NCBI GenBank assembly: GCA_951406725.2
Contig: OX597841.1
Coordinates: 22,320,001 to 22,384,000 of the forward strand
Direction: 5' to 3'
Source of the DNA: Octopus vulgaris
Taxonomy: Eukaryota
DNA: 64,000 bases
Below, piece by piece: positions 17,221 through 63,148 of this stretch. Each line of letters opens with the position of its first letter. The first letter of the stretch is position 1. The notes beneath the pieces are model-generated. The model saw only the letters and a program-made list of their open reading frames with translations, was not told the DNA's origin and did not search any database. Made by a program: the position numbers and the translations under genes.

Positions 17221-17837
17221 ATTTTTTCTTTCAAAATTACAATAGATATATTTTTTCCTTCTCTTTGCTTCTATACTGTTTTGTTTACAAATATTTCAAC
17301 TGCTGTATTTCTGTCCAGTAAATTTATCCAAGTTTAATTTCCACACAGACACATCTTGTAGACACTCCAGCCAGTGAAGTCCAGAAAGTTTGCTAAGAAC
17401 ACATTTCAAAGTGGAATTCTATTACACATTTTCAGAAACAATCTTATACATCTCTTCTGTACAATATTTTGGTTTTTAAAAGCTGATAAATAATGAGAAT
17501 GTATCTTCAGTTATGCCAATGTCATCTGATATTCTGAAAGAATAAAGAAACAATAGCGTAAGATACAGAGGCTACTTAAAAAAATACAGATTAAACATTT
17601 CCATAGAGGTAAATTCTAGAAATAAGCATTTACCTGAACAACAAAATTTTAAATTTATTAAAATTTACATTTGAAAATCTTATGTGAAGCTAAAATATTT
17701 CTAAACTCCAGCTACACATTCGCATTTAAAAATACATACACACACACATATATATATATATACTCAACTAATAAGGGTGAGAAAATTGGATACTAATTTA
17801 ATAGTCCCATCTTTTACCATATATATATATATGTATG

Positions 17838-17885
<48 letters not shown>

Positions 17886-17886
<1 letters not shown>

Positions 17887-18325
17887 TAGCAGAAATACCT
17901 GGTATTGCCCACTTATGGAAAATAACAAAATTTCAATATACCTTTTAGATCACTAACCTAAGATAGATTACAGAGGGGTTACTTCCCCGTAGCTAAGGTA
18001 CCAACTTTATGCATTAATAACCTAGTGTTTCCCAGGTTGTTGAAACTAATGAAATTTAAGTATGCCTTTTAAATCTTTCAGTAAAATGGAACATGGATTA
18101 TGTAGTTCTCGACAATTAGCTGAGGTACAAACTATTAATGTCAATAATATATTTTATCTGATGTTCTCACTGTTAGAAACCAGGTAGTTCTTTCTCTTTA
18201 CTATCACCTTCAATTGTCAGTACTTATTTGAAACACGTTCAACCTGAAAATACATAAATTTGAGAAGAACCGGCCTGTAGGTGCTCCCCTCCTCTTACTA
18301 AGTACATTTAACAAAACTTCAATAA
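17886..18325 (-). mobile_element. Probable non-autonomous Helitron remnant
   Basis: Minus-strand 3' end GGGCAATACCAGGTATTTCTGCTAG|T (short GC element then CTAG) inserted in a TA tract; 5' boundary uncertain. Confidence 0.45.
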
Positions 18326-18689
18326 TCAGATGACATGAGTATAAACAAGCACCTTGGGCAAGTGTCTTCTACCATAGCCTCGGGCCGACCAAAGCCTTGT
18401 GTGTGGATTTGGTAGACGGAAACTGAAAGAAGCCCGTCCTATATATGTATGTATATTTATGCGGGTGTGTGTTTGTGTGTCTGTGTTTGTCCCCCTAGCA
18501 TCGCTTGACAACCGATGCTGGTGTGTTTATGTCCCCGTTAGTTAGCGATTCGTCAAAAACAGACCGATAGAATAAGTACTGGGCTTACAAAGAATAAGTT
18601 CCTGGGTCGATTTGCTCGACTAAAGGCGGTGCTCCAGCGTGGCCGCAGTCAAATGACTGAAACAAGTAAAGGAGTAAAAATATTGACCG

Positions 18690-19080
18690 TAACCCGTGGC
18701 CTCTACCAAGGATGTAGCCAGTCCACTTATGCATAGCTTTGCTTCTTGGGACACAAAACTCTACTTATGAAGACCTGCTGAGGCAAGTGAAAATCAAAAT
18801 CGAAATCGATCAACATCAATGGAAATTTTAGCTGTGATACCAGTGCCGGTGGCACGTAAGAGAACCATCCGAACGTGGCCGCACCGCCTGGCCCCCGTCC
18901 CTATGGCACGTAAGAGAACCATCCGAACGTGGCCGCCCCGCCTAGCCCCCGTGCCAGTGGAACGTAAAAGAACCATCCGAACGTGGCTGCCCCGCCTGGC
19001 CCCCGGGCCGGTGGCACGTAAGAGAACCATCCGAACTGGCCCCCGGGCCGGTGGCACGTAAAAAGCACCCACTACACTCA
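18690..19080 (+). repeat. RTE 3'-UTR fragment with ~54-bp tandem units; shorter versions at ~2925-3160, 10770-10946, 22166-22400, 35388-35560, 44455-44650
   Basis: Repeated GTGCCGGTGGCACGTAAGAGAACCATCCGAACGTGGCC units homologous to 56320-56580. Confidence 0.75.
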
Positions 19081-19247
19081 TTGGAGACAAGATCGGGATT
19101 CGTAGTGGGTGGGAAAAACAAATGGGGAAACGATGGAGCGTGTAGGAGGTAGGCTCCATAGCTAGAAATAGCAGCCAAATGTCGCACACATCAAAGGACA
19201 TCTAAAACACCAAAGTATTGAAAGATTAAACGATTTCATTGTTTAAT

Positions 19248-19420
19248 ACTTACGGAAATGTCTTTAAAAAGGATGGTGTTGTTGTTAGAAGTGCTTCAGG
19301 TGGTTGAGAAATGTATTATAAATGTGTTTGGGAGTGAATTAAGAGAAATTCTGGCACCAGACATGTGCGCAGAGATTTCAGGAATGGAGGCGGAAATACG
19401 CTTAGTGCGCATGCGTATGA
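19248..19420 (-). promoter_or_regulatory. Putative promoter and exon 1 of gene 3
   Basis: NRF-1 motif 19406-19415, donor at 19253, acceptor at 17535-17534. Confidence 0.65.
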
Positions 19421-45912: not shown

Positions 45913-48900
45913 CATCATCACCATCATCGTTTAACGTCCGTTTTAAGTGCTAGCATGGGTTGGACGGTTCGACCGGGGTCTCGTAAGCCATGGAGGCTGC
46001 ACCAGGCTCCAGTCTGATTTGGCAGTGTTTCTACAGCTGGATGCCCTTCCTAACGCCAACCACTCCGTGAGTGTAGTGGGTGTTTTTTACGTGCCACCGG
46101 CACAGGAGACAGAGCAGGCTGGCAAACAGCCACGATCGGTTGGTGCTTTTACGTGTCACCGACACAGACGCCAATCAGGCGACGCTGACAAGAATAAAAT
46201 TCTAATCATTCTGGATTATGCATTAACTGGTGTAGTCGGTGTCCCTGGAGTTACCATAAGTAAACAAATGACAAGAAGATCTAGGACTGTTATTTATTAC
46301 AACCCCTTATAAAGATACAAGGTAAATGTCTTACAAATTGTGAAGTAACAGGTTTGGCAAGTTTTAACGAACTCTATCTGGAACAGTGGGAGTTGTATCA
46401 CAGTTGAAATTCTGTAGCATGTTCATGGTTTGGTTCCGTGTGTTGGGCAGCATCTGTTGTTGTGATCTGTCTGTTGCTGTAGAGGAAGTACAAGTTTACC
46501 AGGCCAGAGAGAGAGAGATCAGGATGAAGACAGGAAAGGGTGTGCCGCCACAAAGGAGATACATGGTTACCCAGCCTGAGGGAAATGCAGGAGAAGGAGA
46601 TAGAGGGTGGGAGACAACACGATGGAGATACTGGCAAAATGATGGGCGTATTCACTAGGGAGGGGATCAGAACATAAATGGGGATGGTTGAGTAAGGGAA
46701 GAAAGAGATATAGATGGTGGCAAGGGCCAGGACATACCCTTAAGGTTCAAACGTCATAATATAAGGGACAGGATACTGTAAATGTGGCGAGCTGGCAGGA
46801 ACGTTAGGCTCTGAGTTCAAATTCCGCTTAGGTCGACATCCTTTCGGGGTCGATTAAATAAGTACCAGTTACGCGCTGGAGTCGATGTAATCGACTTAAT
46901 CCCTTTGTCTGTCCTTGTTTGATTCCTCTCTGTGTTTAGCCCCTTGTGGGTAGTAAAGGAATAGGATACTGCAAGGGAACCATGATTAGAGCGTAGGGGG
47001 TGTTGAGTTTTAACGAACTCTATCTGGAACAGTGGGAGTTGTATCACAGTTGAAATTCTGTAGCATTGGTTATGAGTTTTGCTTGCGAGTTAACTGTGGC
47101 TGGTTCATCTTGATGTACCTGTGTGTTGGTTATGCATTCACTGGTCTAGTCTGTCTGCCTGGAGTTACCGAATACAAAAGAATGACAAGAAGAACCACGT
47201 AAATTCAATGCGATTTATTTATTACAACCCTTTATAAAAATACATGGCAAATGTCTTACATATTGTGAAGTAACAGGTTTGGCAAGTTTTAACGAACTCT
47301 ATCTGGAACGGTGGAAGTTTTATCACAGTTGAAATTCTGTAGCATCTTCCTGGTTTGGTTCTGTGTGCTGGGCAGCATCAGTTGTCCTGATCTCATCTCC
47401 ATCTCTCCTTCTTTCTCTCTGCACAAAAACGGTAAGGACTATTCCTTATATAATGACTGGTGGTCCGGAAGAGAAACTAGTATCTTCAGTGCTTGCAATT
47501 TCACTTGGCTTCATGTACCTTCTCATTTGTAATAATTTAACACTTTCGTTACTGTATTTATTTTGAGATGCTCTGTTTCTTTCAATTACTTTAAATATAA
47601 CAAAGAATTTAGTAAAATAACTTAGTTACCATTGAGCTAGTGTTAGGAGCATATATTGTGACTAAGATTTGGTGGAAGATTTGAATTCAAAACTTCTGAA
47701 AACAAGACATTTGTACTCAGAACCAGAGCCGGTTTCAGCCGGTTGGTATTGAAGGGGTTAAACACACCTCTACATTTGGGCAGATGGACATAAGAACTTG
47801 GAAGGGTGTGAACTGAAGGAAATTAGGCTGTTATTTCTAGCATATAGAGTGACCACACTGAGGTCTCCATCTCTCATGTCTTCTGCTGATTAATTTTCTT
47901 AACCCTTTCATTACTGTATTTATTTTGAGATGCTCTGTTTCTTTCAATTACTTTAAATATAACAAAGAATTTAGTAAAATAACTTAGTTACCATTGAGCT
48001 AGTGTTAGGAGCATATATTGTGACTAAGATTTGGTGGAAGATTTGAATTCAAAACTTCTGAAAACAAGACATTTGTACTCAGAACCAGAGCCGGTTTCAG
48101 CCGGGTTGGTATTGAAGGGGTTAAACACACCTCTACATTTGGGCAGATGGACATAAGAACTTGGAAGGGTGTGAACTGAAGGAAATTAGGCTGTTATTTC
48201 TAGCATATAGGGTGACCACACTGAGGTCTCCATCTCTCATGTCTTCTGCTGATTAATTTTCTTCTTAACCCTTTCATTACTGTATTTATTTTGAGATGCT
48301 CTGTTTCTTTCAATTACTTTAAATATAACAAAGAATTTAGTAAAATAACTTAGTTATCATTGAGCTAGTGTTAGGAGCATATATTGTGACTAAGATTTGG
48401 TGGAAGATTTGAATTCAGAACTTATGGAAATAAGACGTTTGTACTCAGAGCCAGATCCGGTTAGTAACGAAACGGTTAAAGATTAATAGCCAGGAAGACA
48501 ATATGCTTCCTATAAATATAAATGTTGGGTTTCTTTCAGTTTCCCTCTAAAAAACCCACTCACAAGGGTTTGTTTGGCTTAGTATTCTAGTAGAATAGAC
48601 TTGCATAAGGTGCCATGTAGTGGGACTGATCCCAGAAGCATGCAGTTGGTTCATACCTATTTCTTTACTACCCACAAGGGGCTAAACACAGAGAGAACAA
48701 ACAAGGAAAGACAAACGAATTGTCGATTATATCGTCCCCAGTGCGTAACTGGTACATATTTAATCGACCCCGAAAACACGAAAGCCAAACTCGACCTCAG
48801 CCGAATTTGAACTCAGAACGTTAGCAGCAGATGAATTACCGCAAAGCGTTTCGCCCGGCATGCTAACGGTTCTGCCAGCTGGCCGCCTTGCATAGGAAGC

Positions 48901-49850
48901 AAGGTTCATACCACACGGCCACACCTATTGGTTTTAACAGATTCTTAAAATTCATGCAGGACAAAATTTAAAATATGCAAAAAAGTTGCTTTTAATAAAA
49001 AAAAATATCCCACAGGTGAGATACCTGAGATGTGGTGAAATAAACTCTGGAGTTAGGAGGCTGTTATCACACACAGCTCTATCTCCTCTCCTGGGTGATT
49101 ACATTTATAGTTAGAGAGTGTGTCCCTTATTCTTTGTTTTGGCATAGAAGGAACTTCCACAATTACAACAATTCCCTGATGAATAGTTTGGTTAATGCCA
49201 TGGAGAAAGCCCACAAAACTACCACAATTTTAGAAGCTCAAAATGCTTATTGTTCTTATGAATTGTCACATTGATAGTCATACATCTATATGAATAGATA
49301 CACATTTAGTTAACACCAGAAGTGCCGAGCGGTCATTTTTCACCAATTCTGCTAATTACTTTTTAATTCCTACAACTGTATTGAATGTGCAATCATGAGC
49401 ATCATATCAAGTATATGTGCATAGATATATATTTTTCACATGTAAATAAATGCTAAAAGAATGTATTTTCAAATCCTTTATTCAATGCATTTGCTGATAT
49501 TTAAAATAAATTGTATTAAATGTGATTTTCAATGACAGTCAAAAATGGTCCCCTATGGTCCTTGTAGGAAGTAAGAAATGTTGTTACTTGTAGGGTTAGC
49601 TCTTTAGCATTTAAAGTGGCCATACCTGGTCCAAATTTTCTATCTATCTTATGGTCAAACTAGCCAGAGTTGGCCTCTTGCACCTACCCTACAATGTCAT
49701 TCTAAATACAAACAATCATATCGTAAAAACTTGAAAGCTGTGAGATAATGTAAGACAATTTGAAAATAATGTGAATAAATAAACATCACATTCGACAGAA
49801 TAACCTGCATGGTAAAGGGTTCAGTCACCACTCACAGAGAAAAGGTTTTC

Positions 49851-52181
49851 TCATGTATGAATACGCTTGTGAGAAGTTAAGGCACTACTATGAGAGAATG
49901 ATTTGCCACAGCTATCACAGGGATATGGCTTCTCTCCTGTATGAATACGCTTGTGTTTAGTCAAAGAAGGATTTACAGAAAATGATAGACCACAGATATC
50001 ACAGTGATATGGCTTCTCTCCTGTATGAATACGCTTGTGATTAGTCAAAGAAGGACTTACAGAAAATGATAGACCACAGATATCACAGTGGTATGGCTTC
50101 TCACCTGTATGAATACGCTTGTGACTAATTAAAGCACTACTTACAGAAAATGATAGACCACAGATATCGCAGTGATATGGCTTTTCTCCTGTATGAATAC
50201 GTTTATGAGTAGTTAAAACGCTACTCCGAGAGAATGATTTGCCACAGATATCACAGTGGTATGGCTTCTCACCTGTATGAATACGTTTATGATAAGTTAA
50301 AGCGGTGTTGCGAGGGAATAATTTACCACATATATTACAAGAATATGGTTTCTCTCCTGTATGAATACGTTTATGATAAGTTAAAGCGGTGTTGCGAGGG
50401 AATGATTTACCACATATATTACAAGAATATGGTTTCTCTCCTGTATGTGTACGTTTGTGAGAAGTGAGAGAACTACTATGAGAGAATGATTTACCACATA
50501 TATTACAAGAATATGGTTTCTCACCTGTATGTGTACGTTTGTGAGAAGTTAAAGTGGTGCTGAGAGGGAATGATTTACCACATATATTACAAGAATATGG
50601 TTTCTCTCCTGTATGTGTACGTTTGTGAGAAGTGAGAGAACTACTTCGAGAGTATGATTTACCACATATATTACAAGAATATGGTTTCTCTCCTGTATGA
50701 ATACGCTTGTGACTACTTAAAGCAGCTTGGTCGGAGAAGGATTTAGCACAGACATCACAGTGATATGGCTTCTCTCCAGTATGAATACGTTTGTGTTTAG
50801 TCAAGTTATAACTTTGAGAGAATGATTTACCACAAATATCACAGCCAAATCGCTTTTCCCCTGTATGAACAATCGTGTGTGAATTTAAAGCACTAAGGTT
50901 AGAGAATGATGTACCACAGACATCACAGTGAAAGGGCTTCTCTCCTGTATGAATACGTTTGTGTACAAGCAATTTGGAACTTTCACAGAATGATTTACCA
51001 CAGACATCACAGTGGTATGGCTTCTCTCCTGTATGAACACGTTTGTGATTCATTAGGGTACTTCTATGAGAGAAAGATTTATTACAGACATCACAGTGAT
51101 ACGGCTTCTCTCCTGTATGGAAACGTTTGTGATTAGTTAATGTGTCACTTCGGGAGAATGATTTACCACAGATATCACAAGAATATGGTGTCTCTCCTGT
51201 ATGAATACGCTTGTGAATAGTCAGATTACTACTTACAGAGAAAGACTTGTTACAGATGTTGCAGCAATATGGCTTCTCACCCGTATGAATACGTTTGTGA
51301 GAAGTTAAACTTCTTTTGCTTGAGAGCGACTTGCCACAGATATTACAGGAATATGGTGTCTCAACTGAATGAATATGTTTGTGCGTATCCAAGACACCCT
51401 TTTGAGAGAATGATTTACTACAGATGTTACACTGATATGGCTTCTCTCCTGTATGAATACGCTTGTGAGAAATGAAAACACTTCGGTCAGAGAATGATTT
51501 ACCACAGATGACACAGTGAAATGGCTTCTCTCCTGTATGAACACGCTTGTGAGTAGTTAGGGTACTCAAGTGACAGAAAGATTTGTTACAGATGTTGCAG
51601 TGATATGGCTTCTCCCCTGTATGAATACGTTTATGAGAAGTTAGCTGACTACTGACACAAAAAGATTTGTTGCAGATGTCACAGTGATGTGGTTTCTCTC
51701 CTGTATGAACACGTCTGTGAGCAGTCAAAGAACTGCTGCTAGAAAATGATTTACTGCAGATATCACAAGAATATGGTGTCTCTCCTGTGTGAATACGTTT
51801 ATGATCAGTTAAAGTATTACGGTGAGAGAATGATTTACCACAGATTTCACAGTGAAATGGCTTCTCTCCTGTATGAACACGTTGGTGTGAAATCAACTCC
51901 ATTTTTTCAGAGAATGATTTACCACAAACATCACAGTGAAATGGTTTCTCTCCTGTATGAATACGTTTGTGTCTAGTCAAGCCATCTTTTCGAGAGAATG
52001 ATTTACCACAGATGTCACAGTGAAATGCCTTTTCACCTGTATGAATACGTTTGTGCTTATTCAAGTTACCCTTTTCAGAGAAGGACTTTTTACAGACATC
52101 ACGTTTATGTGACAATATACGTCTCTTCTTCACTTTGTCTTCTAGAAAAGTCAAATCCTTTGCTTCCTCACTATTTTCCAT
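49851..52181 (-). CDS. C2H2 zinc-finger protein, gene 7 (27 finger units; no adjacent exon 1)
   Basis: ORF 49851..52235, first ATG at 52181; intact frame; splice acceptor retained at 52522-52523. Confidence 0.93.
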   Translation of the reverse strand: MENSEEAKDLTFLEDKVKKRRILSHKRDVCKKSFSEKGNLNKHKRIHTGEKAFHCDICGKSFSRKDGLTRHKRIHTGEKPFHCDVCGKSFSEKMELISHQRVHTGEKPFHCEICGKSFSHRNTLTDHKRIHTGETPYSCDICSKSFSSSSSLTAHRRVHTGEKPHHCDICNKSFCVSSQLTSHKRIHTGEKPYHCNICNKSFCHLSTLTTHKRVHTGEKPFHCVICGKSFSDRSVFISHKRIHTGEKPYQCNICSKSFSQKGVLDTHKHIHSVETPYSCNICGKSLSSKRSLTSHKRIHTGEKPYCCNICNKSFSVSSNLTIHKRIHTGETPYSCDICGKSFSRSDTLTNHKRFHTGEKPYHCDVCNKSFSHRSTLMNHKRVHTGEKPYHCDVCGKSFCESSKLLVHKRIHTGEKPFHCDVCGTSFSNLSALNSHTIVHTGEKRFGCDICGKSFSQSYNLTKHKRIHTGEKPYHCDVCAKSFSDQAALSSHKRIHTGEKPYSCNICGKSYSRSSSLTSHKRTHTGEKPYSCNICGKSFPLSTTLTSHKRTHTGEKPYSCNICGKSFSHSSSLTSHKRTHTGEKPYSCNICGKSFPRNTALTYHKRIHTGEKPYSCNICGKLFPRNTALTYHKRIHTGEKPYHCDICGKSFSRSSVLTTHKRIHTGEKPYHCDICGLSFSVSSALISHKRIHTGEKPYHCDICGLSFSVSPSLTNHKRIHTGEKPYHCDICGLSFSVNPSLTKHKRIHTGEKPYPCDSCGKSFSHSSALTSHKRIHT

Positions 52182-52725
52182 TTTATTTCTTTGAAAATCA
52201 CAATAGATATATTTTTTCCTTCTCTTTGCTTCCACACTGTTTTGTTTACAAATATTTCAACTGCTGTATTTCTGTCCAGTGTTACTTTTGTCTGAATACT
52301 CTCTAGTAAACTTATCGAAGTTTAATTTCCACACAGACACATCTTGTAGACACTCCAGCCAGTGAAGTCCAGAAAGTTTGCTAAGAACACATTTCAAAGT
52401 GGAATTCTATGACACATTTTCAGAAACAATCTTATATATCTGTTCTGTACAATATTTTGGTCTTTAAAAGATGATAAATAATGAGAATGTATCTTCAGTT
52501 ATGCCAATGTCATCTGATATTCTGAAAGAATAAAGAAACAATAGCGTAAGATACAGAGGCTACTTAAAAAAATACAGATCAAACATTTCCATAGAGGTAA
52601 ATTCTAGAAATAAGCATTTACCTGAAGAACAGAATTTTAGATTTATTAAAATTTACATTTGAAAATCTTATGTGAAGCTAAAATATTTCTAAACTCCAGC
52701 TACACATTCACATTTAAAAATAAAT

Positions 52726-52795
<70 letters not shown>

Positions 52796-52847
52796 TCAAC
52801 TAATAAGGGTGAAAAAATTGGGTACTAATTTAATAGTCCCATCTTTT

Positions 52848-52921
<74 letters not shown>

Positions 52922-52922
52922 G

Positions 52923-54221
52923 AGGCTGCCTAACACAGCTCCTGCAACACTATGACTGGGTGTTGAAACAGCTACTAAATGGCTCAAATGTGGATGTAAT
53001 ATATCTCGACTTTGCAAAAGCCTTTGATAAGGTCGACCATGGTATGATCTGTCACAGGTGGAGAACTTGGAGAGTGGCTGCACAACTTCCTAAAAGACAG
53101 AGAACAGGCAGTTCTGAGCAAGGAAACGCAAGTAACAAGCGGTGTCCCACAGGGCACTGTCTTGGGGCCACTGATGTTCGTAGTGGCCCTTTCAGACATG
53201 CCTTCAGTTGCTACGATGACCACCCTTGCTAGCTATGCAGATGACACAAAAGTCTCCCACGCAATACAAAACCCTGAAAATATTGCGCATCTCCAACAGG
53301 AGTTGGATTCAATATACAGGCAGGCTGAGGACAACAACATGCAGTTTAATGCAGCTAAGTTCCAGGCCCTGTGCTACCGGCACACAAAGGTAAACGACGT
53401 GCAGACTGGATACACTGGCCCAGGAAGAATTGCAATCCCTGAGTCAAAATCAGTGCGTGACCTGGGCATTGACATGAGCAATGATGCATCTTTCCAAATG
53501 CATATTGCTAATCTGGTGATGAAATGCAGACGGCTAGCTGGATGGATTCTCCGAACTTTCAGAACAAGAGAGAAGGAGACACTGATGGTCCTATGGAAAA
53601 CATTCGTCCTCAGCCGCTTGGACTACTGCTCCCAACTGTGGTCACCACACAATATAAAACTAACAGCAGAACTTGAAGCAATTCAGAGAAGCTACACAAA
53701 GAAAATCGTCTCAATGCAAAATATCAGCTACTGGGAAAGACTGAAGGTATTAAACCTCTTCTCCCTAGAGCGGAGGCGGGAGAGATATGCGGTGATATAC
53801 ATCTGGAAAATCCTGGAGGGTCTTGTCCCAAACTTTGGCATTCAAAGTTACCCCAACCGCAGAACGGGGCGCCACTGCATGGTGCCAAAGATTCCAACAT
53901 CACCATCAAAATACAGGTCTAGATACTGCAACAGCTTGGGTTTCAGAGGACCACAGCTCTTTAACATCCTCCCTAAATGCCTGAGAGACTTACATGGTGT
54001 GGATGTGGGTTTCTTTAAAACTAAACTGGATCTCTTCTTGTCGGGAGTCCCAGATGAACCTACCTCACGACAGGAGATGCGGACGCGGGCAGCAGCATCG
54101 AACTCCCTTGTTGATCAAGTGCCACATATCAGAAGTAGATTCACAAATTAGTGTAGTTCATTCAGCGGTGGTGCCCCAGCATGGCTGCGGCCTTCGGGCT
54201 AATACATTTTTAAGGATTTAA

Positions 54222-54226
<5 letters not shown>
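52923..54226 (+). mobile_element. 5'-truncated, degenerate CR1/L2-group LINE (reverse transcriptase C-terminal part and 3' UTR)
   Basis: RT motifs VIYLDFAKAFDKV, SGVPQGTVLGP (across a frameshift), YADD, RDLGI, RLDYCSQLWSP and SLERRR; flanked by (TA)n. Confidence 0.85.
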
Positions 54227-54267
<41 letters not shown>

Positions 54268-54270
<3 letters not shown>

Positions 54271-56735
54271 AATGTCCTGCGCTGTGAGGATGAAAGACTT
54301 GAGGCATTTCGTGTTGCAAGACAGTGTGTGAGAGAGAATCGTGACGTGGTAGGAGAGAAATGTGTTCGCAAGGATGACGGTTCACTTGCGCTAAATGAGG
54401 ATGCCAAGAGAGAGGCTTGGAGACGCCACTATGAAAGGTTGCTGAATGAGGAAAATGAATGGGATAAAGAGAGTCTGCCGAATGTCGACCCAACAGAGGG
54501 ACCAGCAATCCGAGTTAACAGCTCCTTAGTAGTTAAGGCAATTAGAAGCATGAAAACAGGGAAAGCCCCAGGCCCATCAGGAATTACTGCAGAGATACTC
54601 AAAATATCTGGTAGTGTCGGCTATAGCATAGTCACCCGTATAGTTAACCAGGTGATACACGAAGGAGTCATACCCAATGACTGGTGTAGCAGCATAATAG
54701 TCAACTGCTACAAAGGTAAAGGTGACACCCTAGATACAAATAACTACAGGGGCATCAAGCTGCTGGATCAGGTAATGAAGGTTACGGAGAGGGTTATAGC
54801 CCAATTAATTAGAGAGAGAGTTAGCTTAGATGATATGCAGTTTGGGTTCGTGCCAGGGAAAAGTACTACTGATGCTATATTCCTGGTAAGACAGCTGCAG
54901 GAGAAATACCTAGCCAAAGATAAGCCCTTGTACCTGGCTTTTGTTGACTTGGAGAAAGCCTTTGACAGAGTCCCCCGATCCCTTATCTGGTGGTCAATGA
55001 GGAAACTAGGGATAGATGAATGGTTAGTGAGAGCTGTGCGAGCCATGTACAGAGACGCTGCTAGTAAGGTGAGGGTTGGCAACGAGTACAGTGAAGAATT
55101 CCGAGTAGAGGTTGGGGTCCACCAAGGTTCAGTCCTCAGTCCCCACCTATTTATCATAGTCCTCCAGGCAATAACGGAGGAATTCAAGACAGGATCCCCC
55201 TGGGAGCTCCTCTATGCTGATGACCTTGCTCTAATTGCTGAGTCACTATCAGAACTGGAGGAGAAGTTTCAGGTGTGGAAACAAGGATTATAATTGAAGG
55301 GCCTTAGAATCAACCTAGCCAAAACCAAAGTCCTAATAAGTAAGAAGGTGAACCAATCACAAACGACTTCAGGTAGATGGCCCTGCTCGATCTGTAAAAA
55401 AGGTGTAGGTAGAAACTCTATAAGGTGCACCAAGTGTAAGCTATGGACACATAAGAGGTGCAGCAATGTCAAAGGAGGGCTAACTAGGAAAATAGTTTTT
55501 GTCTGTGGCAGATGCTCAGGAGCAATAAACACTGGAAATGTGCAGAGACCAACTTCTACCACGTTCCAAGGAGACAAACTAGAAGTAGTTGATAGCTTCC
55601 GCTACCTAGGAGACCAAGTCAGTAGCGGGGGTGGGTGTGCTGAAAGTGTAACTGCTAGAGTAAGAATAGCCTGGGCAAAGTTTAGAGAGCTCTTACCCCT
55701 GCTGGTGACAAAAGGCCTCTCGCTCAGAGTAAAAGGCAGACTGTATGATGCATGTGTATGTACAGCCATGCTACATGGTAGTGAAACATGGGCCGTGACT
55801 GCTGAGGATATGCGTAAGCTCACAAGAAATGAAGCCAATATGCTCCGATGGATGTGTAATGTCAGTGTTCATAATCGTCAGAGTATAAGTACCTTGAGAG
55901 AAAAGTTGAACCTAAGAAGTGTCAGTTGTGGTGTGCAAGAGAGACGGCTGCGCTGAAATGGTCATGTGACGAGAATGGCTGAAGATAGTTGTGTGCAAAA
56001 GTGCTACACCCTAGCAGTTGAGGGAACCTGTGGAAGAGGTAGACCCAGGAAAACCTGGGACAAGGTGGTGAAGCACGACCTTCGAACTTTAGGTCTCACC
56101 AAGGAAATGACTAGAGATCAAGACCTATGGAAGTATGCTGTGCGTGAGAAGACCCGGCAAGACTAGACAGGCCATAATCCGTGGCCCCTACCTGGGACGT
56201 AGTCAGTCCACCTGTGCATACCTTCCTTCTTGTGACACTTGTTAAGACCTGTTGAGGCAAGTGAAAATCAAACCAAATCAAAATAGATGAACATCAATGG
56301 AATTTGTATCTTTGTGGTACCAGTGCCGGTGGCACACAAGGAAACCATCCGAACGTGGCCGTAGCCAGTACCGCATAACACCATCCGTTGTGGCCGTTCG
56401 CCAGCCTCATCTGGCACCTGTGTCGGTGGCACATAAAAAACACCATCCGAGTGTGGCCGTCTGCCAGCCTCATCTGGCACCTGTGTCGGTGACACATAAA
56501 AAACACCATCCGAGCATGGCCATTCGCCAGCCTCGTCTGGCACCTGTGTCGGAGGCACATAAAATCACCCACTACACTCTCGGAGTGGTTGGCGTTAGGA
56601 AGGGCATCCAGCTGTAGAAACACTGCCAGATCTGACTGGCCTGGTGCAGCCTTCGGGCTTCCCAGACCCCAGTTGAACCGTCCAACCCATGCTAGCATGG
56701 AAAGCGGACGTTAAATGATGATGATGATGATGATG
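54268..56735 (+). mobile_element. 5'-truncated RTE-clade LINE with in-frame stops, internal PHD-like finger, repetitive 3' UTR and (GAT)n tail
   Basis: Three collinear in-frame ORFs (54328-55293, 55294-55956, 55966-56166) carrying KAPGPSG, NYRGI, QFGF, FVDLEKAFD, GVHQGSVLSP, YADD, FRYLG and RGRPRKTW. Confidence 0.88.
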
Positions 56736-56760
56736 ATATATATATATATATATATATATA

Positions 56761-57068
56761 CTAGCAGAAATACCTGGCATTGCCCACTTATGGAAAATAA
56801 CAAATTTTCAATATACCTTTTAGATCACTAACCTAAGATAGATTACAGAGGGGTTACTTCCCCGTAGCTAAGGTACCAACTTTATGCATTAATAACCTAG
56901 TGTTTCCCAGGTTGTTGAAACTAATGAAATTTAAGTATGCCTTTTAAATCTTTCAGTAAAATGGAACATGGATTATGTAGTTCTCGACAATTAGCTGAAG
57001 TACAAACTATTAATGTCAATAATATTTTTTATCTGATGTTCTCACTGTTAAAAACCAGGTAGTTCTTT
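56761..57068 (-). mobile_element. Second copy of the Helitron-like remnant, cut by the gene 7/8 deletion
   Basis: Near-identical to 17886-18195. Confidence 0.5.
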
Positions 57069-57979
57069 GGCTTCTCTCCTGTATGAATACGTTTGAGTAC
57101 AAGCAATTCGTAACTTGTACAGAATGATTTACCACAGATATCACAGTGGTATGGCTTCTCTCCTGTATGGAAACGTTTATGAGTAGCTAAGTTGCCAAGT
57201 TGAAAGAATGATTTACCACAGATTTCACAGTGAAATGGCTTCTCTCCTGTATGAATGCGTTTGTGATTAGTTAGGGTACTTCTTTGAGAGAAAGATTTAT
57301 TACAGACATCACAGTGATACGGCTTCTCTCCTGTATGGAAACGTTTGTGATTAGTTAATGTGTCATTTCGGGAGAATGATTTACCACAGATATCACAAGA
57401 ATAAGGTGTCTCTCCTCTATGAATACGCTTGTGAATAGTCAGATTACTACTTACAGAGAAAGACTTGTTACAGATGTTGCAGCGATATGGCTTCTCACCC
57501 GTATGAATACGTTTGTGAGAAGTTAAACTTCTTTTGCTTGAGAGCGATTTCCCACAGATATTACAAGAATATGGTGTCTCAACTGAATGAATATGTTTGT
57601 GCCTATCCAAGCCACCCTTTTGAGAGAATGATTTACTACAGATGTTACACTGATATGGCTTCTCTCCTGTATGAATACGCTTGTGAGAAATGAAAACACT
57701 TCGGTCAGAGAATGATTTACCACAGATGACACAGTGAAATGGCTTCTCTCCTGTATGAATACATTTGTGTATAGTCAATCTGCCATTTGCAGAGAATGAT
57801 CTACCACAGATGTCACAGTGAAATGCCTTCTCTCCTGTATGAATACGTTTGTGCTTATTCAAGTTACCCTTTTCAGAGAAGGCCTTTTTACAGACATCAA
57901 GTTCGTGTGACAATATACGTCTCTTCTTCACTTTGTCTTCTAGAAAAGTCAAATCCTTTGGTTCCTCACTCTTCTCCAT
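57029..57979 (-). pseudogene. 3'-truncated C2H2 zinc-finger gene 8 (10 finger units, first and last degenerate)
   Basis: The finger array breaks at ~57068 (TGEKP|KNYLVFNSENIR*) into sequence matching gene 3 intron 17886-18195. The last finger has H->L. It could still encode a 316-aa protein. Confidence 0.75.
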
Positions 57980-58654
57980 ATTTTTTCTTTCAAAATTACA
58001 ATAGATATATTTTTTCCTTCTCTTTGCGTCTATAGTGTTTTGTTTACAAATATTTCAACTGCTGTATTTCTGTCCAGTGTTACTTTCGTCTGAATACTCT
58101 CTAGTAAACTTATCCAATTTTATTTTCCTCACAGACTCATCTTGTAGACACTCCAGCCAGTGAAGTCCAGAAAGTTTGCTAAGAACACATTTCAAGTGGA
58201 ATTCTACGACACATTTTCAGAAACAATCTTATATATCTGTTCTGTACAATATTTTCATTTTGGTCTTTAAAAGATGATAAATAATGAGAATGTATCTTCA
58301 GTTATGCCAATGTGATCTGATATTCTAAAATAATAAAGAAACAACAGTGTAAGATATAGAGGCTACTTATATCCGTAACTGCAGACGTAGATTTCTGGAT
58401 AACAAAAAAAAAAGGGGAAAAAAAACCGAAGGGCCTATGGTGATGATCCCTCTATAATTGTATAGGGAAAAAAAGCAGAGAAAAGAATATTGAATGAAAA
58501 TTTCTTGAAAATAAAAAGGACCTGCCACCTGACCATGTCTCGGACTTCAAGTTCAACAACTGTGATCGCCAATTTTCAGTCCTAAACACAATGTAACAAT
58601 GATCAAAATGTAACGATATCAAACAAGGTAGATGGAAAAGTAAGAATAAAGTGG

Positions 58655-59035
58655 AAATTACTCATTTTGCCCCGCTTACTAATTTCGCTTCCATCCTCCT
58701 ATCAAGAAACAAGCATTCGATAAATCATAAGAAAGCATTGGATTCTCAACATTTCTGTGGTTGGAGTTTATTTGGGAATATTTCTCAAACTAAAATACAA
58801 CGAACGAACGTGGAAATGATGGAGCGTGTAGGAAGAAATGAGGAATTACTCATTTTGCCCCGCTTACTAAGTATGTCCCTTACCTTATATTAAGAAACAA
58901 GGGTTCGATGAATTATAATAAAGCATTGGATTCTCAGCATTTCTGTGGTTGGAGTTTATTTTAAGAACATTTCTCCACCTAAAACACACAACAAACAAAC
59001 TTAAAGAAGAAACGATGGAGCGTGTGGGAGGTTGC
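58655..59035. repeat. ~190-bp tandem duplication in the gene 8 intron
   Basis: AATTACTCATTTTGCCCCGCTTACTAA...GATGGAGCGTGT occurs twice; mirrored at 63060-64000. Confidence 0.7.
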
Positions 59036-59129
59036 CGCCATAGCTAGAAATAGCAGCCAAATGTGGAACAGATCAAAGGACATCTGAGACACCAAAGTAT
59101 TAAAAGATTAAATGTTTTCATTGTTTAAT

Positions 59130-59275
59130 ACTTACGGAAATGTCTTTATAAAGGATGGTGTTGTTGTTAGAAGTGCGTCAGGTGGTTGAGAAATGTATTA
59201 TAAATGTGTTTGGGAGTGAATTGAGAGACATTGATGAATGGAGGTAGAAGTACGTTTAGTGCGCATGCGTATGAG
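59130..59275 (-). promoter_or_regulatory. Putative promoter and exon 1 of gene 8 (possibly shared with gene 7)
   Basis: Donor at 59135, NRF-1 motif 59260-59269, YY1-like ATGGCGGC at ~59034-59041, acceptor at 58326-58325. Confidence 0.62.
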
Positions 59276-59409: not shown

Positions 59410-60370
59410 GGGCCTTTTCACTTTGACCGGCAGATTTTTAAAATAATTTCTTTGTAACTAAACACTTTTAAACTTCGTATACTGTTAGAATGTGTTTATA
59501 AAACATCTTTGGGTCTTTTCGGTTTGAACGGCAGTTTTTAACAATTTCTAGGTAACTAAAAATTTTTAAACTTCGTATACCGGTAGAATGTGTTTATAAA
59601 ACATTTTTTTGCTCTTGGCTTTCTTGAGAAATTCTGTAGTTTGTAAGCTTAATTAGTTGCTTAATTTTTTGCATTTCGGCAATTTCAACCAATCAATGAC
59701 GTCTATTGAGGTGAATACAATTTCTGCCGTAGTTTGTCAACAACTTCCTGCACAGATACACACATTATACATATTATATATTCGTTTAAGAATCAGAATG
59801 GGGATCTTTTCGGTTTGAACGGCAGTTTTTTAAAATAATTTTTTTGTAACTAAACACTTTTAAACTTTGTATACTGGTACAAAGTGTTACATAAAACATC
59901 TTTTTCTCTTGGCTTCCTTGAGAAAATTCTGTAGTTTGTAAGCTATTTGTTGTTTAATTGTTTGCATTTCGGCAATTTCAACCAATCAATGACGTCTATT
60001 GAGGTGAATACAATTTCTGCCGTAGTTTGTCAAAAACTTCCTGCACAGATACACACATTACATATTATATATTCGTTTAAGAATCAGAATGGGGATCTTT
60101 TCGGTTTGACCGGCAGATTTTTAAAATAATTTCCACGTAACTAAACACTTTTAAACTTCGTATACTGGTAGAAAGTGTTACATAAAACATCTTTTCCTCT
60201 TGGCTTTATTGAGAAAATTCTGTAGTTTGTAAGCTATTTGTTGCTTAATTTCTTGCATTTCGGCAATTTCAACCAATCAATGACGTCTATTGAGGTGAAT
60301 AAAATTTCTGCCGTAAACATTTTCTGGCGGTGTCATATCAATGCGTATTGAAATTGTATTCACCTCAATA
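59410..60370. repeat. ~290-bp tandem repeat (about 3 copies plus a partial)
   Basis: Units start GGG(A)TCTTTTCGGTTTGA at 59511, 59801 and 60091, with a partial unit at 59411. Confidence 0.85.
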
Positions 60371-62794: not shown

Positions 62795-62966
62795 GAGACA
62801 CATGCGCACTAAACGTTCTTCCGCCTCCATTCATTACATCAGGACGAACATGTCTGGTGCCAGAATTTCTCTCAATTCACTCCCAAACACATTTATAATA
62901 CATTTCTCAACCACCTGAAGCACTTCTAACAACAACACCATCCTTTATAAAGACATTTCCGTAAGT
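62795..62966 (+). promoter_or_regulatory. Putative promoter and exon 1 of a ninth ZNF gene lying beyond the right edge
   Basis: Reverse-orientation copy of the exon-1 module: CATGCGCA at ~62801, donor GTAAGT at 62961, then intron sequence homologous to 58780-59130. Confidence 0.55.
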
Positions 62967-63148
62967 ATTAAACAATGAAAACATTTAATCTTTCGATACT
63001 TTGTGAATCAGATTTTGTTCCACATTTGGCTGCTATTTCTAGCTATGGCGGCAACCTCCTACACGCTCCATCGTTTCTTCTTTAAGTTTGTTTGTTGTGT
63101 GTTTTAGTTGGAGAAATGTTCTTAAAATAAACTCCAACTACAGAAATG

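What the first reader, a model, noticed from the sequence alone, without database searches (positions are those of the whole stretch)
49851..59275. Largest gene has no first exon of its own: a deletion may have made a two-cassette locus under one promoter
Seen: gene 7's intron matches gene 3's intron (52520-52850 vs 17530-17820; 56761-57068 vs 17886-18195). At ~57068 it joins directly to the middle of gene 8's finger array (GTAGTTCTTT|GGCTTCTCTCC). The SINEs, exon 1 and NRF-1 promoter expected for gene 7 are missing, as is gene 8's 3' end. Gene 7 keeps an intact 776-codon frame and acceptor (52523). Inference: exon 1 at 59136+ could splice to acceptor 58326 (10-finger truncated protein) or acceptor 52523 (27-finger protein), giving alternative whole-array cassettes.
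Basis: partly seen in the sequence, partly recalled or inferred. Interest (0 to 1): 0.7.

Follow-up and report, generated by a model that had tools for sequence, protein, structure and literature searches.

The report
Deletion leaves zinc-finger gene promoterless
In a young octopus zinc-finger gene cluster a real deletion removed one gene's promoter and its neighbour's tail, so the intact gene likely borrows the neighbour's first exon; this is a known kind of rearrangement, and whether both products are made is untested.

Summary
Observation confirmed. A blunt breakpoint at 57068/57069 joins gene 8's tenth finger repeat to the middle of a dispersed repeat in gene 7's intron (303/308 identical to gene 3's). 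No exon-1 module or promoter motif lies between the two acceptors. A 335-nt contig from an independent run bridges the junction, so mis-assembly is unlikely. The two-cassette reading is not shown. The 59136->52521 splice joint is in four runs, but 15 of 50 normal paralogue splice products are identical over 30 nt each side, so it is not diagnostic. The short 'cassette' is a remnant: 8 canonical fingers, six nearly copies of gene 7's, no 3' end of its own, and the only TAG acceptor of 56. Promoterless exon 2s recur (6 of 56 in 594 kb). Best reading: gene 7 (776 aa, largest of the 56) likely uses gene 8's exon 1 by skipping the remnant (0.45); silent orphan 0.27; useful two-product locus 0.12. 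Precedent: human OR51E2 splicing to the first exon of pseudogene OR51C1P.

The parts
59136..59270 (-). Gene 8 promoter motif (CGCATGCGCA, 134 nt from the donor) and non-coding exon 1; donor GT at 59135. The only same-strand exon 1 upstream of both acceptors. Transcription start not mapped.
   Evidence: motif present upstream of 49 of 51 family donors
58325..59135 (-). Gene 8 intron 1 (811 nt), of a different lineage from genes 1-7; ends in TAG, the only non-CAG acceptor of 56
57069..58324 (-). Remnant of gene 8 exon 2: 345-nt leader, then ORF from 57979 with 10 finger repeats (8 canonical); ORF runs 40 nt past the breakpoint to a stop at 57031-57029 (316 aa)
57068..57069 (.). Blunt deletion breakpoint, about 5.7-6.1 kb estimated lost
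   Evidence: bridged by a 335-nt contig of run X7
56761..57068 (.). Internal fragment of a dispersed repeat; insertion shared only with gene 3's intron (303/308)
56172..56760 (.). High-copy short repeat (SINE-like; label not tested) and microsatellites, inserted in gene 7's intron relative to gene 3
54214..55953 (+). Broken LINE fragment with RVT_1 match, antisense to the ZNF genes
53048..54148 (+). Second LINE fragment with RVT_1 match, antisense to the ZNF genes
52522..52917 (-). Proximal intron of gene 7, gene-3 type, with intact CAG acceptor
52182..52521 (-). 340-nt untranslated start of gene 7 exon 2; holds a 27-nt segment found locally only in genes 7, 8 and the gene at -13307, useful as a marker
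49851..52181 (-). Gene 7 ORF, 776 aa, 26 canonical C2H2 fingers plus a degenerate first repeat; longest ORF of 56 in 594 kb
47899..49850 (-). Gene 7 3' flank, 95-96% like its paralogues, with AATAAA at 49482 (use as poly(A) signal inferred)
17534..19253 (-). Gene 3 intron 1: reference for the state before the deletion

Best explanation
A blunt deletion, estimated at about 6 kb, removed the 3' half of gene 8 and the promoter and first exon of gene 7, and gene 7 is likely now transcribed from gene 8's promoter, with exon 1 predicted to skip the gene 8 remnant and splice to 52521. Shown: the breakpoint, the loss of the exon-1 module, one promoter motif and donor upstream of two acceptors, and an intact 776-codon ORF with an intact 3' flank. 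Inferred: repair by end joining; promoter activity; skipping of the remnant, favoured by its TAG acceptor and lack of its own 3' end. Transcripts that use the near acceptor probably also arise, but would carry a truncated ORF with a long repeat-filled tail and are best read as by-products. The protein would be unchanged, because exon 1 is non-coding; only its control would change.
For: Breakpoint cuts a dispersed repeat internally: of 40 scored copies only gene 7's (query 1-304) and one other (1-340) end before query base 389, and no second gene-3-type upstream piece exists, so this is loss, not inversion. Run X7 contig 56792-57126 bridges it with 277 and 58 letters on the two sides and 2 other letters, one equal to gene 3's state and one shared with run X20, so it is another haplotype. 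No exon-1 hit or promoter motif in 52521-58324. Donor 59135 and acceptor 52521 are of family type; acceptor 58324 is the only TAG of 56. First AATAAA/ATTAAA after gene 8's stop is at 53350. Neutral simulation: ORF plus all 26 fingers survive with probability 0.22-0.37 at 0.3% and 0.01-0.07 at 0.8% divergence: modest support for continued use. Only 2 of 36 amino-acid differences to nearest fingers hit the 7 structural positions of 21. One X7 contig (52065-52193) is nearest to gene 7: 1 difference against 2 for the next paralogue. Precedent: OR51E2 splices to the most 5' exon of adjacent OR51C1P (PMC7055050, passages).
Against: No locus-specific splice evidence: the joint 52521->59136 has shorter sides of only 25-41 nt, and 15, 13 and 6 of 50 normal paralogue pairs are identical over 30, 33 and 41 nt each side; gene 1's product is identical over 93 and 84 nt. 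Four listed gene 7-region pieces from X7 and X18 match genes 4, 6 or the gene at -5506 exactly and gene 7 less well. The near acceptor comes first and only 811 nt from the donor, so it may win. An intact ORF is common here: 6 of 6 orphans and 39 of 50 others, Fisher p 0.33. Gene conversion among these genes can keep a silent ORF looking constrained. The age interval is wide: 2/335, 95% CI 0.07-2.2% pairwise.
Confidence: 0.45

Rival explanations
1. Gene 7 is a silent or nearly silent orphan. Exon 1 splices to the near acceptor (58324), or the promoter is weak, and gene 7 is a young unexpressed copy whose frame has not yet decayed.
For: No gene 7-specific splice joint could be shown. Orphan exon 2s recur, 6 of 56. 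11 of 50 non-orphan units were scored as disrupted, so the cluster turns over. Neutral survival is 0.58-0.72 if divergence since the deletion is only 0.1%. The X7 contig across the junction fits transcripts that use the near acceptor.
Against: ORF and all 104 zinc ligands intact although about 3.8 kb of further insertions sit in the same intron (order relative to the deletion unknown). Junction shared with another haplotype. Near acceptor changed to TAG.
Confidence: 0.27
2. One reading: one promoter makes two useful alternative products, a 316-aa protein with 8 canonical fingers and the 776-aa protein, by choice of acceptor.
For: Both acceptors have an AG and a pyrimidine tract; the short ORF is open for 316 aa; a contig from a run with spliced joints crosses the junction.
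Against: The short product lacks its own 3' end, has lost a histidine ligand in repeat 10, and six of its fingers nearly repeat gene 7's.
Confidence: 0.12
3. Gene 7 is transcribed from a new start between the two acceptors (antisense side of a LINE or of the short repeat), using a cryptic donor such as 53993 or 54063, or starting unspliced.
For: Donor-like sites exist on the minus strand in 52522-57068; two LINE fragments and other repeats lie there.
Against: No family promoter motif there; the LINE pieces are internal, reverse-transcriptase-region fragments on the other strand.
Confidence: 0.1
4. The junction is an assembly error in a repetitive cluster.
For: The cluster is highly repetitive; only 35% of gene 7's 31-mers are unique within 264 kb. 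Only one listed contig, at depth 3.27, bridges the junction.
Against: An independent run bridges it with a different haplotype. The join is blunt between unrelated sequences, not between similar copies. Gene 7- and gene 8-specific pieces both occur in DNA run X8.
Confidence: 0.03

Closest known systems
Olfactory receptor genes that share 5' UTR exons, e.g. human OR51E2 with pseudogene OR51C1P (PMC7055050; passages seen)
   Same: Tandem paralogue family with the ORF in one downstream exon; a non-coding first exon of an upstream dead gene can be spliced to the next intact gene. The paper counts 7 human and 7 mouse loci with shared 5' UTR exons, and warns that paralogue mis-mapping fakes chimeric transcripts.
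   Different: There the joints have transcript support; here the joint is not locus-specific. Here the downstream gene has lost its own first exon, and a defined breakpoint explains it.
Regulatory shuffling and chimeric structures after tandem duplication in Drosophila yakuba (PMC5460883; abstract and outline seen)
   Same: A rearrangement puts an ORF under a neighbour's 5' region, changing control and not necessarily the protein.
   Different: That study concerns duplications with measured expression; this is a deletion between paralogues with expression unmeasured.
Drosophila lola and mod(mdg4) (PMC7299341 passage; PMC13490949 and PMC6237743 abstract starts in listing)
   Same: Common 5' exons joined to alternative 3' exons; in lola these encode zinc fingers.
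   Different: Their common exons code for a BTB domain (shown for lola in the passage; recalled for mod(mdg4)), there are 20-30 or more isoforms and trans-splicing is involved. Here exon 1 is non-coding, there are two acceptors, and one product is a truncated remnant.
Expanded cephalopod C2H2 zinc-finger gene clusters (PMC9068888; passages seen)
   Same: Large clustered C2H2 families; the paper says cephalopod protocadherin diversity arose by full gene duplication, not shared-exon splicing.
   Different: The passages seen say nothing on exon sharing or promoter loss in C2H2 clusters.

Membership tests
Octopus tandem C2H2-ZNF cluster gene | Tandem zf-C2H2 array with TGEKP-type linkers | tested here: met
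   Pfam PF00096 and PF13465 for both ORFs, no KRAB or BTB hit; finger list
Octopus tandem C2H2-ZNF cluster gene | Lies in a cluster of close paralogues; Octopus relatives | tested here: met
   56 acceptors and 51 donors in 594 kb; the three best hits to gene 8's last 40 aa are named Octopus proteins. Species not determined.
Shared 5' UTR exon pair (OR51E2/OR51C1P type) | Adjacent same-strand paralogues, upstream non-coding exon with donor, downstream acceptor and whole ORF | tested here: met
Shared 5' UTR exon pair (OR51E2/OR51C1P type) | Upstream partner disabled | tested here: met
   Gene 8 truncated at repeat 10, 3' end lost
Shared 5' UTR exon pair (OR51E2/OR51C1P type) | Locus-specific transcript evidence for the cross-gene splice | tested here: inconclusive
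   Joint present in X1, X6, X7, X18 but identical to normal paralogue products
Deletion-derived promoter capture | Real breakpoint joining two non-allelic positions, no reciprocal product | tested here: met
Deletion-derived promoter capture | Downstream ORF expressed from the captured promoter | tested here: inconclusive
   One contig nearest to gene 7 by 1 vs 2 differences; contigs cannot show starts or levels
lola/mod(mdg4)-type variable 3' exon locus | Common coding exons (BTB) fused to variable exons | tested here: not met
   ORFs start inside exon 2; no BTB hit
lola/mod(mdg4)-type variable 3' exon locus | Many complete, distinct variable exons | tested here: not met
   Two acceptors; short one truncated and six fingers 0-7 nt from gene 7's
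lola/mod(mdg4)-type variable 3' exon locus | Regulated or trans-spliced exon choice | not testable with these tools
   Only assembled contigs were offered

The most novel reading that the evidence does not exclude
Octopus zinc-finger clusters are turning tandem genes into shared-promoter cassette arrays. Six of 56 exon 2s in this cluster have lost their first exon, yet all six keep open multi-finger ORFs: gene 7 and the unit at -108061 would be fed by skipping from an upstream exon 1, and the four head-to-head orphans by the back side of a neighbour's palindromic promoter motif or by a distant exon 1. This would be an early stage of a lola-like system arising from a whole-gene array.
Probability: 0.1. 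Interest if true: 0.6.

Novelty: new member of a known kind. Interest (0 to 1): 0.27.

Why it matters
If gene 7 is expressed through gene 8's exon 1, it is a clean, datable case of a transcription factor changing promoter with no change in protein, in a family thought to grow by whole-gene duplication. It also warns annotators: gene counts and splice joints in these clusters cannot be assigned from short reads, since up to 93+84 nt around the joint are identical between loci. If gene 7 is silent, this is ordinary birth-and-death debris.

Tried and rejected
1) Run search: 24 runs listed, all assembled contigs, no RNA holder on record, shares 0.43 or less; no evidence on expression either way. 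Eight run slots were laid (X1, X2, X6, X7; then X7, X18, X8, X20): 7 of the 24 runs. 2) The splice joint 52521->59136 first looked like proof and was rejected as non-diagnostic. 3) The joint 58324->59136 would be diagnostic (0 of 50 pairs identical over 30 nt) but is not among the 15 of 204 and 15 of 55 joints shown; the tables are cut, so this says nothing. 4) At 57023 no contig with the assembly's letter appears in X1, X2 or X6, and no junction-bridging piece is among the 8 shown for X18, X8 or X20; lack of cover is not absence, and it is unknown whether those animals carry the junction. X8 and X20 do hold pieces nearest to gene 7's intron that stop about 50 nt short of it. Contig depths were not used to rank genes. 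5) Neither protein is in the exact-sequence collection. A search with gene 8's last 40 aa gave 28 hits; none of the 9 read carries the junction-derived tail. A search with gene 7's first 120 aa gave generic finger proteins only. 6) Inversion or translocation: no reciprocal piece in 594 kb or among 40 scored genome hits. 7) Insertion of a copied gene 8 front end: no near-identical source; best 87-89% over most of intron plus exon 1 in the cluster, 94% over 576 nt elsewhere on the contig. 8) In-frame fusion by the weak donor at 57045 to 52521 is out of frame by arithmetic (934+340 nt). 9) Literature: six searches listed no paper on shared or lost first exons in cephalopod zinc-finger clusters; mostly listings were seen and no supplements were read, so gene models in supplements may bear on this. 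10) No earlier scan note near this place.
Full report
Setting. The window is G000:C28:22320001-22384000 in a 2.8-Gb genome. It holds eight long C2H2 ORFs. Octopus is inferred from the best named protein hits and the wording of earlier scan notes; the species was not determined. I extended the view to 594 kb. The family unit is a non-coding exon 1, one intron, and an exon 2 holding the whole ORF; a scan found 56 acceptors and 51 donors. Positions outside 1-64000 are window-relative.

Observation. Gene 7's ORF is 776 aa with 27 finger repeats, 26 canonical; gene 8's is 316 aa with 10 repeats, 8 canonical, ending in 12 residues from non-finger sequence. Gene 7 is the longest ORF of the 56. Its proximal intron matches gene 3 at 194 of 199 positions, against 172-174 matches for seven other local genes and 126 for gene 8; 56761-57068 matches gene 3's 17886-18193 at 303 of 308. 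Between the two matching blocks lie about 3.8 kb of inserts in a TA repeat, with two RVT_1-positive LINE fragments on the opposite strand. At 57068/57069 the gene 3-like sequence meets gene 8's finger array with no shared base. A profile of all 51 exon-1 modules finds nothing in 52521-58324, and the promoter motif present upstream of 49 of 51 donors is absent there. Calling it NRF-1 is recalled, not tested.

The breakpoint is real and is a loss. The gene 3-like piece is part of a dispersed repeat. Searching the genome with gene 3's 456-nt version gave 40 scored matches; gene 7's copy stops at query base 304, one other at 340, and the rest run to 389 or further, at 76-85% identity apart from gene 3 itself. 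So the cut falls inside the element. No second copy of the gene 3-type upstream piece exists in 594 kb. Using neighbouring units as rulers, about 5.7-6.1 kb was lost. Run X7 has a 335-nt contig over 56792-57126 with two other letters; one equals gene 3's state and the other is shared with run X20. It is one contig at depth 3.27, but from another haplotype, which an assembly error would not give. X7's type is not on record; it shows CT..AC joints, so it holds spliced RNA (inference). DNA run X8 holds pieces nearest to gene 7 (51355-51424, 52262-52341) and to gene 8 (57746-57853), and X20 one nearest to gene 8.

RNA does not decide the splicing question. A joint 52521->59136 with CT..AC ends appears in X1, X6, X7 and X18, not in X2, with shorter sides of 25-41 nt. 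But 15 of 50 normal donor-acceptor pairs are identical to this product over 30 nt each side, 13 over 33 and 6 over 41; gene 1's normal product is identical over 93 nt upstream and 84 nt downstream. The joint is therefore expected without any cross-gene splicing. Of the seven listed X7 and X18 pieces in gene 7's exon, four match genes 4, 6 or the gene at -5506 exactly, one ties, one could not be resolved, and one (52065-52193) is nearest gene 7 by 1 against 2 differences. In one search the pieces of X1, X2 and X6 at that place fit other paralogues better.

Which acceptor should be used? Shown: the near acceptor is 811 nt from the donor and is the only one of 56 ending in TAG rather than CAG. 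After gene 8's stop the first AATAAA/ATTAAA is at 53350, 3.7 kb on, while gene 7 keeps its 3' flank and an AATAAA at 49482. Inferred from general splicing knowledge: an exon with neither a good donor nor a poly(A) site is poorly defined and tends to be skipped, but a near acceptor can also be used first. Both products probably arise; only the skip gives a normal mRNA. The short product is poor as a cassette: repeats 3-8 differ by 0, 2, 3, 3, 1 and 7 nt from gene 7's repeats 8-13, and repeat 10 has lost a histidine.

Is gene 7 under selection? The junction haplotypes differ at 2 of 335 sites and genes 3 and 7 at 5 of 308, bracketing roughly 0.3-0.8% per lineage with wide intervals. Neutral simulation keeps the ORF and all 26 fingers in 22-37% of trials at 0.3% and 1-7% at 0.8% (indel rates assumed). 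Two of 36 amino-acid differences to nearest fingers are at structural positions. Against this, the genes are conversion mosaics, and intact ORFs are the rule: 6 of 6 orphans and 39 of 50 others by a rough automatic score, p 0.33. The support is modest.

Not unique. Six of 56 acceptors lack their own donor: -108061, 52521, 121621, 136347, 153003, 163953. Four face a plus-strand gene whose palindromic motif lies 1.7-4.5 kb away. First-exon loss thus recurs in this cluster, which lowers the surprise of this case and is the basis of the novel case.

Known systems. Closest is the sharing of 5' UTR exons among olfactory receptor genes, with OR51E2 splicing to the first exon of pseudogene OR51C1P (PMC7055050, passages); that paper also warns of false chimeras from paralogue mis-mapping. 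Regulatory shuffling after tandem duplication is described in D. yakuba (PMC5460883, abstract and outline). The locus resembles lola or mod(mdg4) only loosely and fails membership: no common coding exon, two acceptors, one truncated. Cephalopod C2H2 expansions are known (PMC9068888, passages).

Verdict. Real deletion, anatomy as described, mechanism of a known kind. Promoter capture by skipping 0.45, silent orphan 0.27, useful two-product locus 0.12, new internal start 0.10, mis-assembly 0.03. Interest 0.27.

Noticed in passing
G000:C28 acceptors at 22441621, 22456347, 22473003, 22483953 (window-relative 121621, 136347, 153003, 163953): Four minus-strand ZNF exon 2s with open ORFs (278-418 aa) lack a same-strand exon 1; each is head-to-head with a plus-strand gene whose palindromic promoter motif is 1.7-4.5 kb away. 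Possible use of the promoter's back side.
   Followed up: partly
G000:C28 near 22211939 (window-relative -108061): Another orphan acceptor with a 503-aa ORF, downstream of an intact same-strand gene; same topology as gene 7 but without a truncated neighbour.
   Followed up: partly
window 62864-62993 (+) versus 59103-59232 (-): Gene 9's exon 1 is 98.5% identical to gene 8's in inverted orientation, while genes 1-6 are about 80% over the wider module; suggests inverted duplication or conversion in this head-to-head pair.
   Followed up: no
window-relative -21655 and -20210; partial copy at -21242 to -21401: One acceptor (-23742) has two exon-1 modules upstream, the mirror case of gene 7.
   Followed up: no
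window-relative 106311-106477: Decayed exon-1 module on the minus strand with no acceptor nearby.
   Followed up: no
window 59410-60315: Tandem repeat of about 290 nt units upstream of gene 8's promoter; similar-looking units lie upstream of other promoters in the cluster.
   Followed up: no
window genes 1-8: Finger arrays are mosaics: successive gene 7 fingers have nearest relatives in six or more different genes, pointing to frequent conversion or finger shuffling.
   Followed up: partly
window-relative -189647 and -166548: Acceptor whose nearest same-strand donor is 23 kb away, against 0.8-6.2 kb for the others; may be a seventh orphan.
   Followed up: no
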